NCBI GenBank assembly: GCA_902610815.1
Contig: CACLXG010000004.1
Coordinates: 52,566 to 116,565 of the forward strand
Direction of reading: 5' to 3'
DNA from: an uncultured Candidatus Actinomarina sp.
Lineage (GTDB): Bacteria > Actinomycetota > Acidimicrobiia > Actinomarinales > Actinomarinaceae
Length of the DNA: 64,000 nucleotides
The notes beneath the pieces were generated by a model. It made no database searches. It had not been told where the DNA came from and saw nothing but the letters and a program-made list of their open reading frames with translations. Shown here piece after piece: positions 45,224 through 48,452 of the stretch (position 1 is the first letter of the stretch; each line of letters begins with the position of its first letter). Both the position numbers and the translations under genes were made by a program.

Positions 45224-46366
45224 TTACCGATCGAACTTGCTTTTTATTGTCTCATAAGCAGGCCATCCATATGGTATGCATCCTTCAGTTCCTTTACTTT
45301 GTTGCATCATGACAGGTGCAATAGCTCCTTCTTTTGGACAACCTACGTGTCCCCAGCCAAGAATATGCCCTGTTTCATGATTAATTAGGTAGATTCTGTA
45401 TGTTTCTATATCATTTTTGAAATCTACAGCACCATTTTGCCATCTAAAAAAGTTAAGTACAATATTTTGTTCATTTCTGCATGAGTAAATACTATTGGTT
45501 TCAATTGGTGCGCATAATTCATCAGTTTTTTCTGGGGACGCAAAAATATAAACATAGTCACTATCTTCAACACTAGTTAGCTGAAAAGATTTTTCAGCAA
45601 TATTTGTCCAACCAAGGTCATTATTTAATATAAGAAACAAAAGATTTTTAATACATAAAGGATCAAGACCAAGTGAAGGCTCTATTTTTACTGCGTAATT
45701 AAATTTTTTCTCATCCCTTTGATTAACATTTTCAGGTATTACCCATTCCTCTGCAGAATTTTCTTTAATTTGTGTTGAATCTATACAGCCACCTTTTAGA
45801 TCAGATGTACCAAGATTTTTAGATTTATTTATTACTGAATCATTTAAAAATATTGCTGTTGTAGTTTCCTCCTGACTACTTTTTATATTTAGTACGCTTG
45901 TAACTTCTATTAATTTTTCATTCCATATAGCAAGGTCTGATTCAATGCTTAAAGAATCGAGTATATCTTCAACATCTTCTTCATTTAAGTTTTGATAATT
46001 TGAAATAAAATAACTTTGAGCATAAGCATAATGAGATGCGTAAGTTGAGCTTTTTTCATCTATTTTATTAAGTACAGACAACCATTCGTTAAGACAATTT
46101 TCAGTAAGGCTAAACCAAGACCCAAATTTTATACATTCATCACTTATTGAGAGTAGTTCATTGTCAATAAATTCTTTTAAGCTTATATCTAATGCATTAA
46201 ATCGGTCAATTTCTATTTGTTTTTGAATAGTTGTTGAAGTTAATGTGGTTTCTACTTGTGATGTTTCGGTTTGTTGATCAAGTGAATCACTTAAAAAATT
46301 AAATGCGAAAAAACTTACACCAAGCAAACTTATTAACAAAATTGAAGATTTAATGGTTTGATTCAT
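45224..46366 (-). CDS. Secreted DUF3152-type zinc metalloprotein
   Basis: YLINHETGHILGWGH..C and APVMMQQS; N-terminal signal/TM segment. Confidence 0.82.
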   Translation of the reverse strand: MNQTIKSSILLISLLGVSFFAFNFLSDSLDQQTETSQVETTLTSTTIQKQIEIDRFNALDISLKEFIDNELLSISDECIKFGSWFSLTENCLNEWLSVLNKIDEKSSTYASHYAYAQSYFISNYQNLNEEDVEDILDSLSIESDLAIWNEKLIEVTSVLNIKSSQEETTTAIFLNDSVINKSKNLGTSDLKGGCIDSTQIKENSAEEWVIPENVNQRDEKKFNYAVKIEPSLGLDPLCIKNLLFLILNNDLGWTNIAEKSFQLTSVEDSDYVYIFASPEKTDELCAPIETNSIYSCRNEQNIVLNFFRWQNGAVDFKNDIETYRIYLINHETGHILGWGHVGCPKEGAIAPVMMQQSKGTEGCIPYGWPAYETIKSKFDR

Positions 46367-46407
46367 ATAACTTATGTTAAAAGGATATTACTTTCTAATA
46401 AAGGAAA

Positions 46408-46968
46408 TTATTTTTTGTATCCTTTTTCATCTATAAAATCTTCAGCTTCTAATCCAAGCCCATCAGCCACTCTATTTATATAATTAAAGTAAGAAATTAT
46501 TTGTACTATCTCTGAAACTTCCTTGTCAATATAACCAAATTCTTTAATTTTTTGTATGTCCGATTTATCAATTTTCCCAGGACTAAGTGTTAATTTTTCA
46601 GCAAAGTAGCAGATAGCTTTTTGTTGTTCTGTTAAACCACTTTCCTTCCAGTTAACAGCTATTTCATCTACTAATTTTTGATCTTTTGTCTCCGACCGGA
46701 GATCATATAAATGCGCTCTTATTCAATATTCGCATTCATTAGAAATTGAAGTAACTACTGCAAGTAATTCACGATCAAAGCGTGGAACATTTGAACTTCC
46801 AAACATTGTTGAATTATAGAGACGCATTGAGTCTCTGAGTATTTCTGGGGTTTGTGACTGTATTGTCAATACATTCCATATTCTTCCAGCTCTTCTTAAG
46901 CCTTTTTCATATTCTTTTTTCAGAAGTCCAGTAGAATTTTTAAAATCAAATAATTTTATGAAAGCCAT
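46408..46968 (-). CDS. AhpD/carboxymuconolactone-decarboxylase-family peroxidase-related protein, probable selenoprotein (CxxU), 186 aa
   Basis: RELLAVVTSISNEC-E-Y-(TGA 46723-46725)-IRAH; frame stays open 104 more codons through FAEKLT and YFNYINRVADGLG to TAA at 46408. Confidence 0.88.
46687..46705 (-). promoter_or_regulatory. Candidate bacterial SECIS hairpin UG(A)UCUCC-GGUC-GGAGACA
   Basis: Loop starts with G, 25 nt after the UGA; built from GC-ending codons atypical for this window. Confidence 0.75.
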
Positions 46969-46998
46969 ATTGTCTATTTTTACTTAAAATAAAGGTGT

Positions 46999-47442
46999 AT
47001 GCAACTTCCAAATGAACTTAAACAAGCAATTGAGAATAATGCATTCTGTTCAATAGCTACAAAAATTAATGAAAATGAGATTCAGAATCATCTAATGTGG
47101 GTTGATTACAAAGAAAATAAAATTCTTATTAATACAGAACAAGGAAGAAAAAAAACAGAAAATATCAGGCAGGAACCAAATTTGTCAATTGTCATTTTTC
47201 ATCCATCTGACATGTATTCAAGTTGGGAAATAAGAGGTAGTGTAGAAACAATAGTTCAAGATACTACTGCCAATGATCACATAGACTATTTATCAAATCG
47301 ATACCTAGGCAAGCCTTATAAGCGGACAAAGGATACTACCTGGGAACAAGCAGGCATTAAATCCAGAGAAATATGGGAAGTTGAAGTAAGTAAAATTTTA
47401 TCTATGGTGAGCAGACCTCAGGCAAAATCTGCTTCAGAGTAA
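46999..47442 (+). CDS. PPOX-class (split beta-barrel) probable F420-dependent oxidoreductase
   Basis: MWVDY, INTEQGRKK.EN, EIRG, HIDYLSNRYLG; cofD/cofE in the window. Confidence 0.8.
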   Translation: MQLPNELKQAIENNAFCSIATKINENEIQNHLMWVDYKENKILINTEQGRKKTENIRQEPNLSIVIFHPSDMYSSWEIRGSVETIVQDTTANDHIDYLSNRYLGKPYKRTKDTTWEQAGIKSREIWEVEVSKILSMVSRPQAKSASE

Positions 47443-48062
47443 AACTTTAAAAAAGGATTGTTCTCAAAAGATTCCTGTTCTACCCCTAGAAATTCTTTAA
47501 TTAAATTTTCTGCATTTAATGAGATATCCCCACCTCTAGATTCGGTGTGTCCTGATTTTCTAAATAAATCTTCGGGAATTTTTTTCATAAATCTTTTAAA
47601 GTTTTCCTCGGATATTCTTAGATGCTTTGCAAGTGATAGCTCTACTTTTACTGATTGCGGTAAGACATTGCAACTAAATACATATAGAGAAGCAAACATA
47701 GCCCAATCTAGCGGTGAGGGTCTTCTGCCTTTTTCAAAAACTGTAAAATCGTAATCAGGGAAATATTTATAAGGAGAGTAGGCTAATCCGGATTTATCAG
47801 ATAAAACTTTATAAATATATCGATCAAGTAACTTAATATCCATATTTGGAATGTTATTTTCAATCGTTAATTTACCAATTTGGAATTCACTCTCAGAAGG
47901 ATGGATGACTAACTTACTAATTACAATTTTTCCAAAATAGTTTTCTATATCTACATCAATTTGAATATTTTTTGGTATAAAAATTAACCCATCATTATCA
48001 CTTGAATCAATTACAACTTGTAATTGTTCATTTAGTTCAAAGCTATTGTTATTAATTTTCAT
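47418..48062 (-). CDS. Hypothetical protein, possible C-terminal helix-turn-helix
   Basis: LAKHLRISEENFKRFMKK segment; divergent from tmRNA. Confidence 0.7.
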   Translation of the reverse strand: MKINNNSFELNEQLQVVIDSSDNDGLIFIPKNIQIDVDIENYFGKIVISKLVIHPSESEFQIGKLTIENNIPNMDIKLLDRYIYKVLSDKSGLAYSPYKYFPDYDFTVFEKGRRPSPLDWAMFASLYVFSCNVLPQSVKVELSLAKHLRISEENFKRFMKKIPEDLFRKSGHTESRGGDISLNAENLIKEFLGVEQESFENNPFLKFYSEADFA

Positions 48063-48114: not shown

Positions 48115-48452
48115 GGGGGTGAACTGGCTTCGACTTTGAAGCGAGTCTCTCAGTAGCGAGTCGAGGGTCCTAGGGCCTCGTAAAAAACGTAGGAAAACAA
48201 TATAACTGCCAAACCTAAGTTGGCTTTAGCAGCCTAACCGCTGCTCGTCATCTATCGGGGCTCCCACCTCGGATAGCAATGGCGTCGAAATGTGGGATGC
48301 TGAGTTGGGTTACCGACTGACTCTTAAGATTTAGGTAAACCTGTTAGGTTATAGGTTCCGATGACTTGCCTAACAGTAAACCATCGGATGCACTCGGAGA
48401 AGCTGTTTGATAGCTTGGAAGGACCGGGGTTCGACTCCCCGCACCTCCACCA
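48115..48452 (+). ncRNA. ssrA: tmRNA, tag peptide (A)AKPKLALAA at 48208-48237
   Basis: 5' GGGGGTG pairs with 3' CACCTCC-ACCA including G3:U; T-arm GGTTCGACTCC; resume context ATAACTGCC. Confidence 0.96.

What the first reader, a model, noticed from the sequence alone, without database searches (positions are those of the whole stretch)
46408..46968. Hidden UGA-recoded AhpD-like peroxidase (CxxU), a probable selenoprotein in a streamlined actinobacterium
Seen: the ORF track stops at 81 aa (...SNECEY*), but the TGA is exactly where the second Cys of the AhpD CxxC..H motif belongs. The same frame continues for 104 codons with family-typical sequence (IRAHLYDLR...FAEKLT...YFNYINRVADGLG) and fills an otherwise empty 300-bp gap. 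Known: CxxU AhpD-like selenoproteins occur in marine metagenomes, while selenocysteine use is patchy in Actinomycetota. Inference: a minimal genome that keeps Sec decoding would be notable. No selA/selB/selC/selD is in this window. If they are absent genome-wide, a non-standard UGA recoding route or split-gene expression would be needed.
Basis: partly seen in the sequence, partly recalled or inferred. Interest (0 to 1): 0.88.

Follow-up and report, generated by a model that had tools for sequence, protein, structure and literature searches.

The report
Selenocysteine AhpD-like redox gene, Actinomarina
The apparent 81-codon gene is really a 186-codon antioxidant-type enzyme whose in-frame UGA encodes selenocysteine; it is a genuine member of a selenoprotein family already known from ocean metagenomes.

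Summary
On the minus strand (46968..46408), an ATG opens 81 codons, a TGA (46725-46723) and 104 more codons. Read through, the 186-aa protein matches NCBIfam TIGR01926 (peroxidase-related, AhpD/CMD superfamily) across the TGA. The TGA sits at the second Cys of the E-x11-C-x-Y-C-x3-H relay.

- **Not an error or pseudogene.** All 43 Actinomarina loci I inspected keep the TGA. So does every same-genus match in a 301-genome class draw (52 of 63 other species have the gene). dN/dS downstream is 0.07-0.28.
- **SECIS-like hairpin.** A 5-bp hairpin with a GGUC loop lies 20 nt after the UGA. It is built from very rare codons and is invariant across the genus.
- **Sec machinery is present.** The genome has selA, an adjacent selB with the SelB winged-helix domain, a Sec-containing selD, and tRNA-Sec(UCA). 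TGA also ends 171 of 803 long ORFs, so no unusual recoding route is needed.

Relatives are titled Candidatus Actinomarina. AhpD-like CxxU selenoproteins have been in print since 2005. Sec use across Actinomarina was reported in an April 2026 preprint, whose text does not name this gene. Verdict: real, well supported, a new member of a known kind, of modest interest.

The parts
46408..46968 (-). Complete coding sequence of the AhpD-like (TIGR01926 / CMD superfamily) selenoprotein: 186 codons including one Sec codon, plus the TAA stop
   Evidence: Full-length orthologs with exactly one in-frame TGA.
46723..46725 (-). UGA codon 82, read as selenocysteine. It aligns with the second Cys of CxxC in Cys homologs and in solved structures.
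46689..46702 (-). Predicted bacterial SECIS core hairpin: 5-bp stem UCUCC/GGAGA with a GGUC loop, starting 20 nt after the UGA. It overlaps codons 89-94 and is built mainly from the L-R-S-E codons 90-93.
   Evidence: RNAalifold finds it independently. The rare codons CTC, CGG, TCG and GAG are invariant in the genus. Distant orthologs have a 6-7 bp version at the same place.
46711..46770 (-). Active-site segment encoding the relay positions E67, C79, Y81, U82 and H86
   Evidence: Invariant in the 21-sequence alignment A2. Spacing is identical to Glu118/Cys130/His132/Cys133/His137 of M. tuberculosis AhpD and Glu36/Cys48/Tyr50/Cys51/His55 of PA0269 (PMC3141380).

Best explanation
This is an intact, expressed-as-one-protein selenoprotein gene of Candidatus Actinomarina. 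The mRNA carries UGA at codon 82. A short hairpin 20 nt downstream (UCUCC-GGUC-GGAGA) acts as the bacterial SECIS. It is bound by the genome's SelB carrying Sec-tRNA(Sec), which is made by SelA from selenophosphate supplied by SelD. Selenocysteine is therefore inserted instead of terminating. The product is a 186-aa all-helical AhpD-like / 'peroxidase-related' enzyme (TIGR01926). Its redox centre is C79-x-x-U82 with E67, Y81 and H86 as the proton relay. It most likely works as a selenol/thiol oxidoreductase in peroxide defence, either reducing hydroperoxides directly or re-reducing a peroxiredoxin.

Shown: the frame, the family, the fold, conservation of the UGA, purifying selection, nucleotide-level constraint on the hairpin, and presence of the Sec machinery.

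Inferred: SelB binding to this hairpin, actual Se incorporation, and the substrate.
For: - **Family and fold.** TIGR01926 scores 136.8 bits (cut-off 81.8) over residues 13-175, and Pfam CMD gives 1.2e-8. PDB sequence matches are 6k40 at 2.9e-25 and 2oyo at 1.6e-23, with U82 aligned to the second Cys of CxxC. The AF2 model has pLDDT 86.3 and pTM 0.82 and is all-helical, with Foldseek TM 0.79-0.81 to 2pfx, 3c1l, 6k40 and 2oyo.
- **UGA conservation in the first draw.** 19 of 24 other congeneric genomes have a full-length match with exactly one TGA. One more has a fragment cut by a contig end, and 4 have no match.
- **UGA conservation in the class draw.** 52 of 63 other congeneric species match, and every same-genus row has 1 TGA.
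- **UGA position.** By direct inspection, 43 of 43 Actinomarina loci (20, 23; the sets overlap in genomes) have TGA at the CxxU codon and none has TGC or TGT. A 44th locus, L071, is cut at its contig end and gave no motif. Amino-acid identity goes down to 70%.
- **Orthologs outside the genus.** Among matches at 43-53% identity in other families of the class, 22 of 24 rows have one TGA. I verified the position for two of them, L038 and L039.
- **Purifying selection.** Against the window's copy, dN/dS downstream of the UGA is 0.070-0.282 in 18 pairs. Upstream it is 0.019-0.160 in the 14 pairs where dS was computable.
- **Hairpin codon usage.** L-R-S-E is encoded by CTC, CGG, TCG and GAG. These make up 4.2%, 1.0%, 4.0% and 22.4% of their synonymous families in this genome, a joint 3.8e-6.
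- **Hairpin conservation.** The stretch is invariant in the 25 distinct Actinomarina sequences apart from C-to-U changes: in 4 a stem C-G becomes U-G and stays paired, and in 2 (L031, L036) the closing U-A becomes an unpaired C-A. RNAalifold predicts the same 5 pairs. L039 has a 7-bp version and L038 a 6-bp version, with a C-G to U-A double change at one pair.
- **Other Sec genes in this genome.** The three other UGA-containing genes also have a stem-loop starting about 10-15 nt after the UGA.
- **Machinery.** selA scores 386.7 bits. The selB candidate overlaps the selA stop and carries EF-Tu GTPase plus SelB-wing_3 (PF09107, 39.2 bits against a 23.2 cut-off). selD scores 372.6 bits and has its own in-frame TGA. 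tRNA-Sec(UCA) is found by ARAGORN and by Rfam RF01852 at 75.4 bits.
- **Metagenome and RNA-library contigs.** Contigs from three metatranscriptome libraries bridge the UGA codon. Among the listed differences none falls on 46723-46725, and the nearest (46714, 46717, 46732, 46735) are all third codon positions.
Against: - There is no direct evidence of selenium in the protein or of translation past the UGA.
- Covariation support for the hairpin is thin: one pair has a double change, in 2 distant sequences only, and 5 of 500 shuffles reach the observed score. In 2 Actinomarina sequences the fifth pair is a C-A mismatch.
- RNAfold on the single sequence prefers a different fold, with an unremarkable energy (z = -0.98).
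- No Rfam family matches the site.
- selB scores below NCBIfam's cut-off (188.2 against 242.25).
- The RNA-library contigs may include DNA and cannot show translation, and one search left 33 further differences unlisted.
- 11 of 63 congeneric species gave no match at E <= 1e-20 (one of them, G021, has the contig-end fragment), including a single-contig genome that is 87% complete, so the gene is not universal in the genus.
- The biochemical function is inferred by homology. The gene is not next to a peroxiredoxin gene.
Confidence: 0.9

Rival explanations
1. The TGA is a sequencing or assembly error or a recent nonsense mutation, so the locus is a pseudogene or a truncated 81-aa product.
For: Under the standard code the ORF stops at 81 aa. 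11 of 63 congeneric species gave no match at E <= 1e-20, so the gene is dispensable in some lineages.
Against: The TGA is at the same codon in 43 of 43 inspected Actinomarina loci from independent single-cell and metagenome assemblies. It is also there in all same-genus matches, at down to 70% amino-acid identity with saturated dS. The downstream half has dN/dS 0.07-0.28. Contigs of four independent public runs show no listed change at the codon.
Confidence: 0.01
2. UGA is read through by a route other than Sec: a reassigned UGA (Trp or Gly code), a suppressor tRNA, or Cys delivered by the Sec machinery when selenium is scarce.
For: Surface-ocean selenium is low. I recall, from no call here, that Cys can be loaded on tRNA(Sec) when SelD uses sulfide in other organisms. 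Nothing in the sequence rules out occasional Cys insertion through the same SelB/SECIS route.
Against: TGA terminates 171 of 803 ORFs of 200 aa or more. The only UCA-anticodon tRNA is tRNA-Sec, and tRNA-Trp is CCA. The complete Sec machinery is present and selD itself needs Sec decoding. The UGA sits exactly at a redox Cys position and is followed by a constrained hairpin, which is the signature of SelB-dependent decoding.
Confidence: 0.05
3. It is a true selenoprotein but not a peroxide-defence enzyme. The AhpD-like/CMD scaffold may serve another thiol chemistry, such as reductive dehalogenation as in the marine debrominase Bmp8, or reduction of another small molecule or protein disulfide.
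For: Foldseek places Bmp8 (6ohj, 6ohi) at TM 0.79, although at 15-16% identity. Most close structural relatives are deposited as 'uncharacterized peroxidase-related protein'. The gene is not adjacent to a peroxiredoxin gene. Its conserved neighbours are a PNPOx-like flavin/deazaflavin-type protein and a DUF3152 protein.
Against: The best-scoring PDB sequence match, 6k40 (32% identity), is titled as an alkyl hydroperoxide reductase of D. radiodurans R1. A review reports that deleting the D. radiodurans AhpD-like gene DR_1765 raises H2O2 sensitivity and that its CxxC Cys are needed (PMC8945050, passages); that 6k40 is DR_1765 is my inference from title and date. All five AhpD relay positions are conserved. 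Four AhpC/TSA-family genes that could be partners exist in the genome.
Confidence: 0.25

Closest known systems
AhpD-like protein selenoprotein family (COG2128 / TIGR01926, CxxU), first described from Sargasso Sea and GOS metagenomes
   Same: Same HMM family: TIGR01926 at 136.8 bits. The 2026 review table lists 'AhpD-like protein, TIGR01926, CxxU' (PMC13188914). Same CxxU motif and the same marine surface habitat. In print it had 27 sequences in the Sargasso Sea (PMC1088965), and 'AhpD-like 1' had 299 sequences in 37 GOS samples (PMC2398784).
   Different: Nothing essential differs. Here the gene is placed in a named lineage (Ca. Actinomarina) with its SECIS, synteny and machinery. I could not compare it directly with the published metagenome sequences.
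Sec machinery and about 5 predicted selenoproteins per genome in Actinomarina (bioRxiv 10.64898/2026.04.03.716425, April 2026)
   Same: Same genus. Same findings for selA, selC and selD, a divergent selB below profile threshold, and a Sec-containing selD (against my).
   Different: The preprint's main text has 0 occurrences of AhpD, peroxid-, carboxymuconolactone or alkylhydroperoxid-. It calls most families uncharacterized and reports no bacterial SECIS.
AhpD-like protein of Deinococcus radiodurans R1 (PDB 6k40) and other Cys-type 'peroxidase-related' proteins (2oyo, 2pfx, 3c1l, 2prr)
   Same: Same length class (about 190 aa), fold (TM 0.79-0.81) and active-site motif. Sequence E-values run from 2.9e-25 to 4.1e-20.
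   Different: These have Cys where the window has Sec. Identity is only 23-32%.
Mycobacterium tuberculosis AhpD
   Same: Same relay spacing E-x11-C-x-x-C-x3-H (PMC3141380).
   Different: The middle relay residue is Tyr here (as in PA0269), not His. There is no adjacent ahpC. A lipoamide-dependent partner was not tested. M. tuberculosis AhpD did not appear among the sequence matches.
NCBIfam NF041238, AhpD_rel_CFYUT alkylhydroperoxidase-related (seleno)protein
   Same: It is also a CxxU AhpD-related selenoprotein family.
   Different: Only 48.5 bits against a cut-off of 175, matching just the C-terminal part of a 357-position profile. This gene is not a member.

Membership tests
Bacterial selenoprotein gene (SelB/SECIS-dependent UGA decoding) | In-frame UGA aligned with a redox Cys in homologs | tested here: met
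   U82 aligns with the second Cys of CxxC in 6k40 and 2oyo and in the Cys-type same-class homologs L041, L044, L045 and L046.
Bacterial selenoprotein gene (SelB/SECIS-dependent UGA decoding) | UGA conserved among orthologs, with purifying selection on both sides | tested here: met
   43 of 43 inspected Actinomarina loci keep the TGA. All same-genus matches have 1 TGA. dN/dS is 0.07-0.28 downstream and 0.02-0.16 upstream.
Bacterial selenoprotein gene (SelB/SECIS-dependent UGA decoding) | Stem-loop (bacterial SECIS) shortly downstream of the UGA with G in the apical loop | tested here: met
   A 5-bp stem with a GGUC loop starts 20 nt after the UGA. The rare-codon stretch is invariant. Distant orthologs have 6-7 bp versions. 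Covariation is weak. The consensus criteria (loop distance, G in the loop) are recalled, not taken from a call. SelB binding was not tested.
Bacterial selenoprotein gene (SelB/SECIS-dependent UGA decoding) | selA, selB, selC and selD in the same genome | tested here: met
   selB is below the NCBIfam cut-off, but it is full length, overlaps selA and carries PF09107.
Bacterial selenoprotein gene (SelB/SECIS-dependent UGA decoding) | Selenium actually incorporated at the UGA | not testable with these tools
   This needs 75Se labelling or mass spectrometry.
AhpD-like / peroxidase-related enzyme (NCBIfam TIGR01926; Pfam CMD PF02627) | Profile score above the curated cut-off over the full length | tested here: met
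   TIGR01926 scores 136.8 against 81.8, covering residues 13-175 on profile positions 12-175 of 178. PF02627 scores 35.2 against 23.
AhpD-like / peroxidase-related enzyme (NCBIfam TIGR01926; Pfam CMD PF02627) | All-helical AhpD fold | tested here: met
   The AF2 model has pLDDT 86.3 and eight helices. Foldseek TM is 0.79-0.81 to 2pfx, 3c1l, 6k40 and 2oyo.
AhpD-like / peroxidase-related enzyme (NCBIfam TIGR01926; Pfam CMD PF02627) | Proton-relay and redox residues E-x11-C-x-[HY]-C-x3-H | tested here: met
   E67, C79, Y81, U82 and H86 are invariant in 21 sequences. The spacing is as in M. tuberculosis AhpD and PA0269. Sec replaces the second Cys.
AhpD-like / peroxidase-related enzyme (NCBIfam TIGR01926; Pfam CMD PF02627) | Hydroperoxidase or peroxiredoxin-reductase activity | not testable with these tools
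   Inferred from homologs only.
Canonical AhpC-AhpD system (M. tuberculosis type) | ahpD adjacent to ahpC | tested here: not met
   The neighbours are PNPOx-like and DUF3152 genes, and this holds in 23 of 23 related loci. AhpC/TSA genes lie elsewhere in the genome.
NF041238 AhpD_rel_CFYUT (seleno)protein | Score above the cut-off of 175 bits over the 357-position profile | tested here: not met
   48.5 bits, on profile positions 216-340 only.

The most novel reading that the evidence does not exclude
The Sec form of this AhpD-like ortholog is ancestral to a large part of the class, since it is found with UGA in several other families at 43-53% identity. Actinomarina kept it through extreme genome reduction as its only CMD/AhpD-family gene, with no Cys paralog. 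On this reading it is one of three non-machinery selenoproteins (with a SelW-like and a thioredoxin-fold protein) that justify keeping four Sec-machinery genes in 1.1 Mb. Actinomarina would then be a major source of the abundant 'AhpD-like 1' selenoprotein reads of surface-ocean metagenomes. The conserved D-L-R-S-E peptide after the active site would be an imprint of the SECIS RNA on the protein.
Probability: 0.4. Interest if true: 0.4.

Novelty: new member of a known kind. Interest (0 to 1): 0.3.

Why it matters
- **Annotation.** Standard gene callers truncate this gene to 81 aa, which hides what is the only AhpD/CMD-family redox enzyme of one of the ocean's most abundant and smallest free-living bacteria. 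Correct annotation changes the picture of its oxidative-stress toolkit.
- **Naming unnamed families.** It gives a concrete, named function to one of the selenoprotein families that the 2026 Actinomarina preprint describes as mostly uncharacterized.
- **Cost of Sec decoding.** It bears on why a 1.1-Mb genome pays for Sec decoding. All four Sec codons I found sit in SelD or in thiol-redox proteins.
- **Limits.** It does not reveal a new mechanism or a new family.

Tried and rejected
- **Plus-strand reading.** My first translation of the finding's coordinates on the plus strand gave only stops. The gene is on the minus strand.
- **Single-sequence folding.** RNAfold of the 71 nt around the UGA gave an unremarkable energy (z = -0.98) and a different fold. 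I relied instead on the alignment-based fold and on codon-usage constraint.
- **Rfam scan.** A scan of 46300-47100 at E <= 10 gave only chance matches (miRNA and snoRNA models) and no SECIS family.
- **First genome-wide scan.** Scoring UGA-containing frames by codon log-odds alone was too noisy: 64 candidates, and the AhpD gene was not among the 60 listed. Adding a frame-competition score gave 24 candidates.
- **Pfam on 10 of those 24 candidates.** I chose them by length and motif. They gave three selenoproteins besides the AhpD-like gene: SelD, an Rdx/SelW-like protein and a redoxin/thioredoxin-like protein. Five showed ordinary domains on one or both sides of the TGA, which I read as neighbouring genes in the same frame or an upstream in-frame TGA (DeoC + aldehyde dehydrogenase, a glycosyltransferase + SOR/SNZ, a decarboxylase, DapB, a permease), and two had no family. 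The scan may miss short or atypical selenoproteins.
- **Minus-strand references.** My references omitted the start codon. This does not affect the family matches.
- **OsmC.** Not found in the genome, which is 93.7% complete.
- **TauE/K07090.** The family named in the preprint has four matches here, none with a TGA inside.
- **Searches not run.** I did not run the large protein-database searches (search for homologous proteins, the search of protein representatives, the listing of cluster members). I therefore cannot say how public protein sets annotate this gene.
- **Supplements.** The preprint's supplementary tables could not be read.

Full report
**1. The observation**

On the minus strand an ATG at 46968 opens a frame that table 11 stops at a TGA (46725-46723) after 81 codons. 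Read with TGA=U, the same frame runs 186 codons to a TAA at 46410-46408, with a single U at position 82 in the motif C79-E-Y-U82-I-R-A-H86.

No other ORF of 40 aa or more lies on 46484-46722; only a 41-aa plus-strand ORF at 46358..46483 overlaps the 3' end of the downstream half. By my reading, the first ATG, GTG or TTG in frame after the TGA is the GTG of V167. The downstream half therefore has no start of its own, and a split-gene reading is not available.

The read-through protein matches NCBIfam TIGR01926 ('peroxidase-related enzyme') at 136.8 bits against a cut-off of 81.8. The match covers residues 13-175, on both sides of the TGA. It also matches Pfam CMD, PF02627.

**2. Not an error and not a pseudogene**

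- A search of 40 related genomes found a full-length match with exactly one in-frame TGA in 19 of 24 other species of the same genus. One further species had only a fragment at a contig end, and four had no match.
- A wider, evenly drawn sample of 301 genomes of the class found the gene in 52 of 63 other congeneric species at E <= 1e-20. Every same-genus row carried one TGA.
- I extracted the codon directly. All 43 Actinomarina loci have TGA at the CxxU position and none has TGC or TGT. These are 20 loci and 23 from a scan of public genome contigs, and the two sets overlap in genomes. A 44th locus ends at a contig edge.
- Identity to the window's protein goes down to 70%.
- Against the window's copy, dN/dS is 0.070-0.282 for the 102 codons after the UGA in 18 pairs. 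It is 0.019-0.160 before the UGA in the 14 pairs where dS was not saturated.
- Contigs of one DNA run and three metatranscriptome libraries cover the codon. None of the listed differences falls on it, and the nearest variable sites (46714, 46717, 46732, 46735) are all third codon positions. 33 further differences were not listed. Contigs from RNA libraries can contain DNA and say nothing about translation.

**3. A SECIS-like hairpin**

Twenty nucleotides after the UGA lies UCUCC-GGUC-GGAGA (46702-46689). RNAalifold, run on 27 distinct sequences without guidance, predicts exactly these five pairs.

The stem is built from codons for L-R-S-E that are CTC, CGG, TCG and GAG. In this genome these make up 4.2%, 1.0%, 4.0% and 22.4% of their synonymous families, a joint expectation of 3.8e-6. 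Across 25 distinct Actinomarina sequences whose other synonymous sites are saturated, the stretch varies only by C-to-U changes: in four sequences a C-G pair becomes U-G and stays paired, and in two the closing pair is lost.

Orthologs at 47-49% identity from other families of the class carry a 7-bp (L039) or 6-bp (L038) hairpin at the same place. One pair switches from C-G to U-A.

Formal covariation is weak. There is one pair with double changes, 5 of 500 shuffles reach the observed score, and two Actinomarina sequences have a C-A mismatch at the fifth pair. Single-sequence folding is unremarkable, and Rfam has no matching family. The three other UGA-containing genes of this genome also have a stem-loop starting about 10-15 nt after the UGA.

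I take the hairpin as the SECIS. That rests on nucleotide-level constraint and position. SelB binding is inferred.

**4. The Sec machinery is in the genome**

The window is contig C4:52566-116565 of a 1.10-Mb, 7-contig assembly that is 93.7% complete, with 32-34% GC.

| Component | Location | Evidence |
|---|---|---|
| selA | C2:43988-45250 | 386.7 bits, above cut-off |
| selB candidate, 559 aa | overlaps the selA stop | 188.2 bits, below the cut-off of 242.25, but profile positions 2-566 of 581 are covered; carries an EF-Tu GTPase domain and SelB-wing_3 (PF09107, 39.2 bits against 23.2) |
| selD | C3:142387-143304 | 372.6 bits, with its own in-frame TGA in G-S-G-U-A-C-K |
| tRNA-Sec(UCA) | C6:25711-25803 | found by ARAGORN and by Rfam RF01852 at 75.4 bits |

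TGA ends 171 of 803 ORFs of 200 aa or more. The only tRNA-Trp has anticodon CCA.

**5. What the protein is**

- *Solved structures by sequence.* The best matches are 6k40 (2.9e-25), 2oyo, 3c1l, 2pfx and 2prr. All are Cys-type 'peroxidase-related' or AhpD-like proteins of about 190 aa, and U82 aligns with the second Cys of their CxxC.
- *Predicted fold.* An AlphaFold2 model built from a 21-sequence alignment is all-helical (pLDDT 86.3, pTM 0.82). It superposes on these structures at TM 0.79-0.81.
- *Active site.* E67, C79, Y81, U82 and H86 are invariant in the alignment. Their spacing equals the Glu118/Cys130/His132/Cys133/His137 relay of M. tuberculosis AhpD and the Glu36/Cys48/Tyr50/Cys51/His55 set of PA0269 (PMC3141380, passages).
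- *Function of a homolog.* A review reports that deleting the D. radiodurans AhpD-like gene DR_1765 increases H2O2 sensitivity and that its CxxC Cys matter (PMC8945050, passages). 6k40 is titled as an alkyl hydroperoxide reductase from D. radiodurans R1. That it is DR_1765 is my inference.

The most likely function is therefore a selenol/thiol oxidoreductase in peroxide defence.

The gene is the only PF02627 match in this genome. Four AhpC/TSA-family genes, which are possible partners, lie elsewhere, and OsmC was not found.

The neighbours are a divergently transcribed PNPOx-like gene 30 nt upstream and, downstream, a DUF3152 gene followed by a 2-hydroxyacid dehydrogenase gene. This arrangement is kept in 23 of 23 related loci.

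A different thiol chemistry on the same scaffold cannot be excluded. The marine debrominase Bmp8 matches at TM 0.79, at 15-16% identity.

**6. Wider distribution**

- Outside the genus, 22 of 24 matches at 43-53% identity carry one TGA. Two, both from one genus, carry none. I verified the position of the TGA for two of the 22.
- A second, more distant clade (C-H-Y-U-T-V-H-H) is also Sec-containing, with its own 7-bp hairpin and a GGUCU loop. Other paralogs have CxxC.
- Five congeneric genomes without this gene still have tRNA-Sec.
- My own scan of the genome found four UGA-containing genes with family support. They are this gene, SelD, a 78-aa Rdx/SelW-like protein (CxxU) and a thioredoxin/redoxin-fold protein with a hydrophobic N-terminal segment ending in Cys (UxxC).
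- That scan examined only 10 of 24 candidates by Pfam and may miss others.

**7. Comparison with what is known**

- *The family.* 'AhpD-like protein' with CxxU was the largest new selenoprotein family in the Sargasso Sea data, with 27 sequences (PMC1088965, passages). 'AhpD-like 1' had 299 Sec sequences in 37 GOS samples, the fourth-largest count in the part of that paper's Table 2 that I saw (PMC2398784, passages). A 2026 review lists 'AhpD-like protein, TIGR01926, CxxU' (PMC13188914, passages).
- *The genus.* The relatives' records are titled Candidatus Actinomarina or OCS155. A preprint of April 2026 reports selA, selC and selD, and a divergent selB, in all 84 complete Actinomarina genomes. 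It also reports a Sec-containing selD and about 5 deep-Sep-predicted selenoproteins per genome (10.64898/2026.04.03.716425; abstract and passages).
- *What the preprint does not say.* Its main text never mentions AhpD, peroxidase or carboxymuconolactone (0 occurrences), and it found no SECIS.
- *Literature searches.* Searches for Actinomarina + selenocysteine, Actinomarinales + selenoprotein and Acidimicrobiia + selenocysteine returned only that preprint and one unrelated paper.

**8. Verdict**

It is a new, well-documented member of a known selenoprotein family, in a genus whose Sec use has just been reported.

Interest is modest at 0.3.

Noticed in passing
G000:C3:111748-111984 (+), outside the window (locus L073): A 78-aa Rdx/SelW-like gene (PF10262, 2e-16) has an in-frame TGA in a C-V-V-U motif at codon 11, followed by a 6-bp hairpin. 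Its length matches the '78 aa, uncharacterized, most abundant' selenoprotein family of the 2026 Actinomarina preprint. That identity is my inference from length only. A TauE-family gene (C3:112023-112691) lies directly downstream.
   Followed up: partly
G000:C1:184811-185293 (-), outside the window (locus L072): A thioredoxin/redoxin-fold gene has an in-frame TGA in W-A-D-Y-U-G-V-C (UxxC). It has a hydrophobic N-terminal segment ending in Cys, which looks like a lipoprotein signal, so it is probably an exported thiol-disulfide oxidoreductase selenoprotein.
   Followed up: partly
G000:C3:142336-143412 (+), outside the window (loci L009, L081): selD itself carries an in-frame TGA (G-S-G-U-A-C-K), so the Sec pathway depends on its own product.
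   Followed up: partly
L039:1471-2028 (+) (genome G039, same class): This ortholog (47% identity) uses UGA both for the Sec codon and, apparently, as its own stop codon. Its hairpin is a perfect 7-bp stem with the same GGUC loop.
   Followed up: partly
L040, L043, L047 (same class, other families): A second Sec-containing clade of the family (motif C-H-Y-U-T/L-x-H-H, about 32% identity) has a different 7-bp hairpin with a GGUCU loop.
   Followed up: no
window 46969-46998: Only 30 nt separate the divergent start codons of the AhpD-like gene and the PNPOx-like gene (46999-47442, +). Both promoters must lie inside the neighbouring coding sequence. The arrangement is kept in 23 of 23 related loci.
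   Followed up: partly
window 48115-48452 (+): A tmRNA gene with tag peptide AKPKLALAA.
   Followed up: no
window 47418-48062 (-): A 214-aa ORF with no Pfam match at E <= 0.001. It is conserved next to the PNPOx-like gene in all 23 related loci at 55-99% identity.
   Followed up: no
G009, G018, G067, G001, G154 (same genus): Five congeneric genomes with no match to the AhpD-like gene all keep tRNA-Sec at 72.6-75.8 bits. The Sec trait therefore does not depend on this gene alone.
   Followed up: partly
G000:C1:41729-44113 (+) (locus L074): A DeoC-family aldolase gene and an aldehyde dehydrogenase gene lie in the same frame, separated by a single TGA. I read this as two ordinary genes, since the domains lie wholly on either side of the TGA. 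It shows how a read-through scan can mislead.
   Followed up: partly
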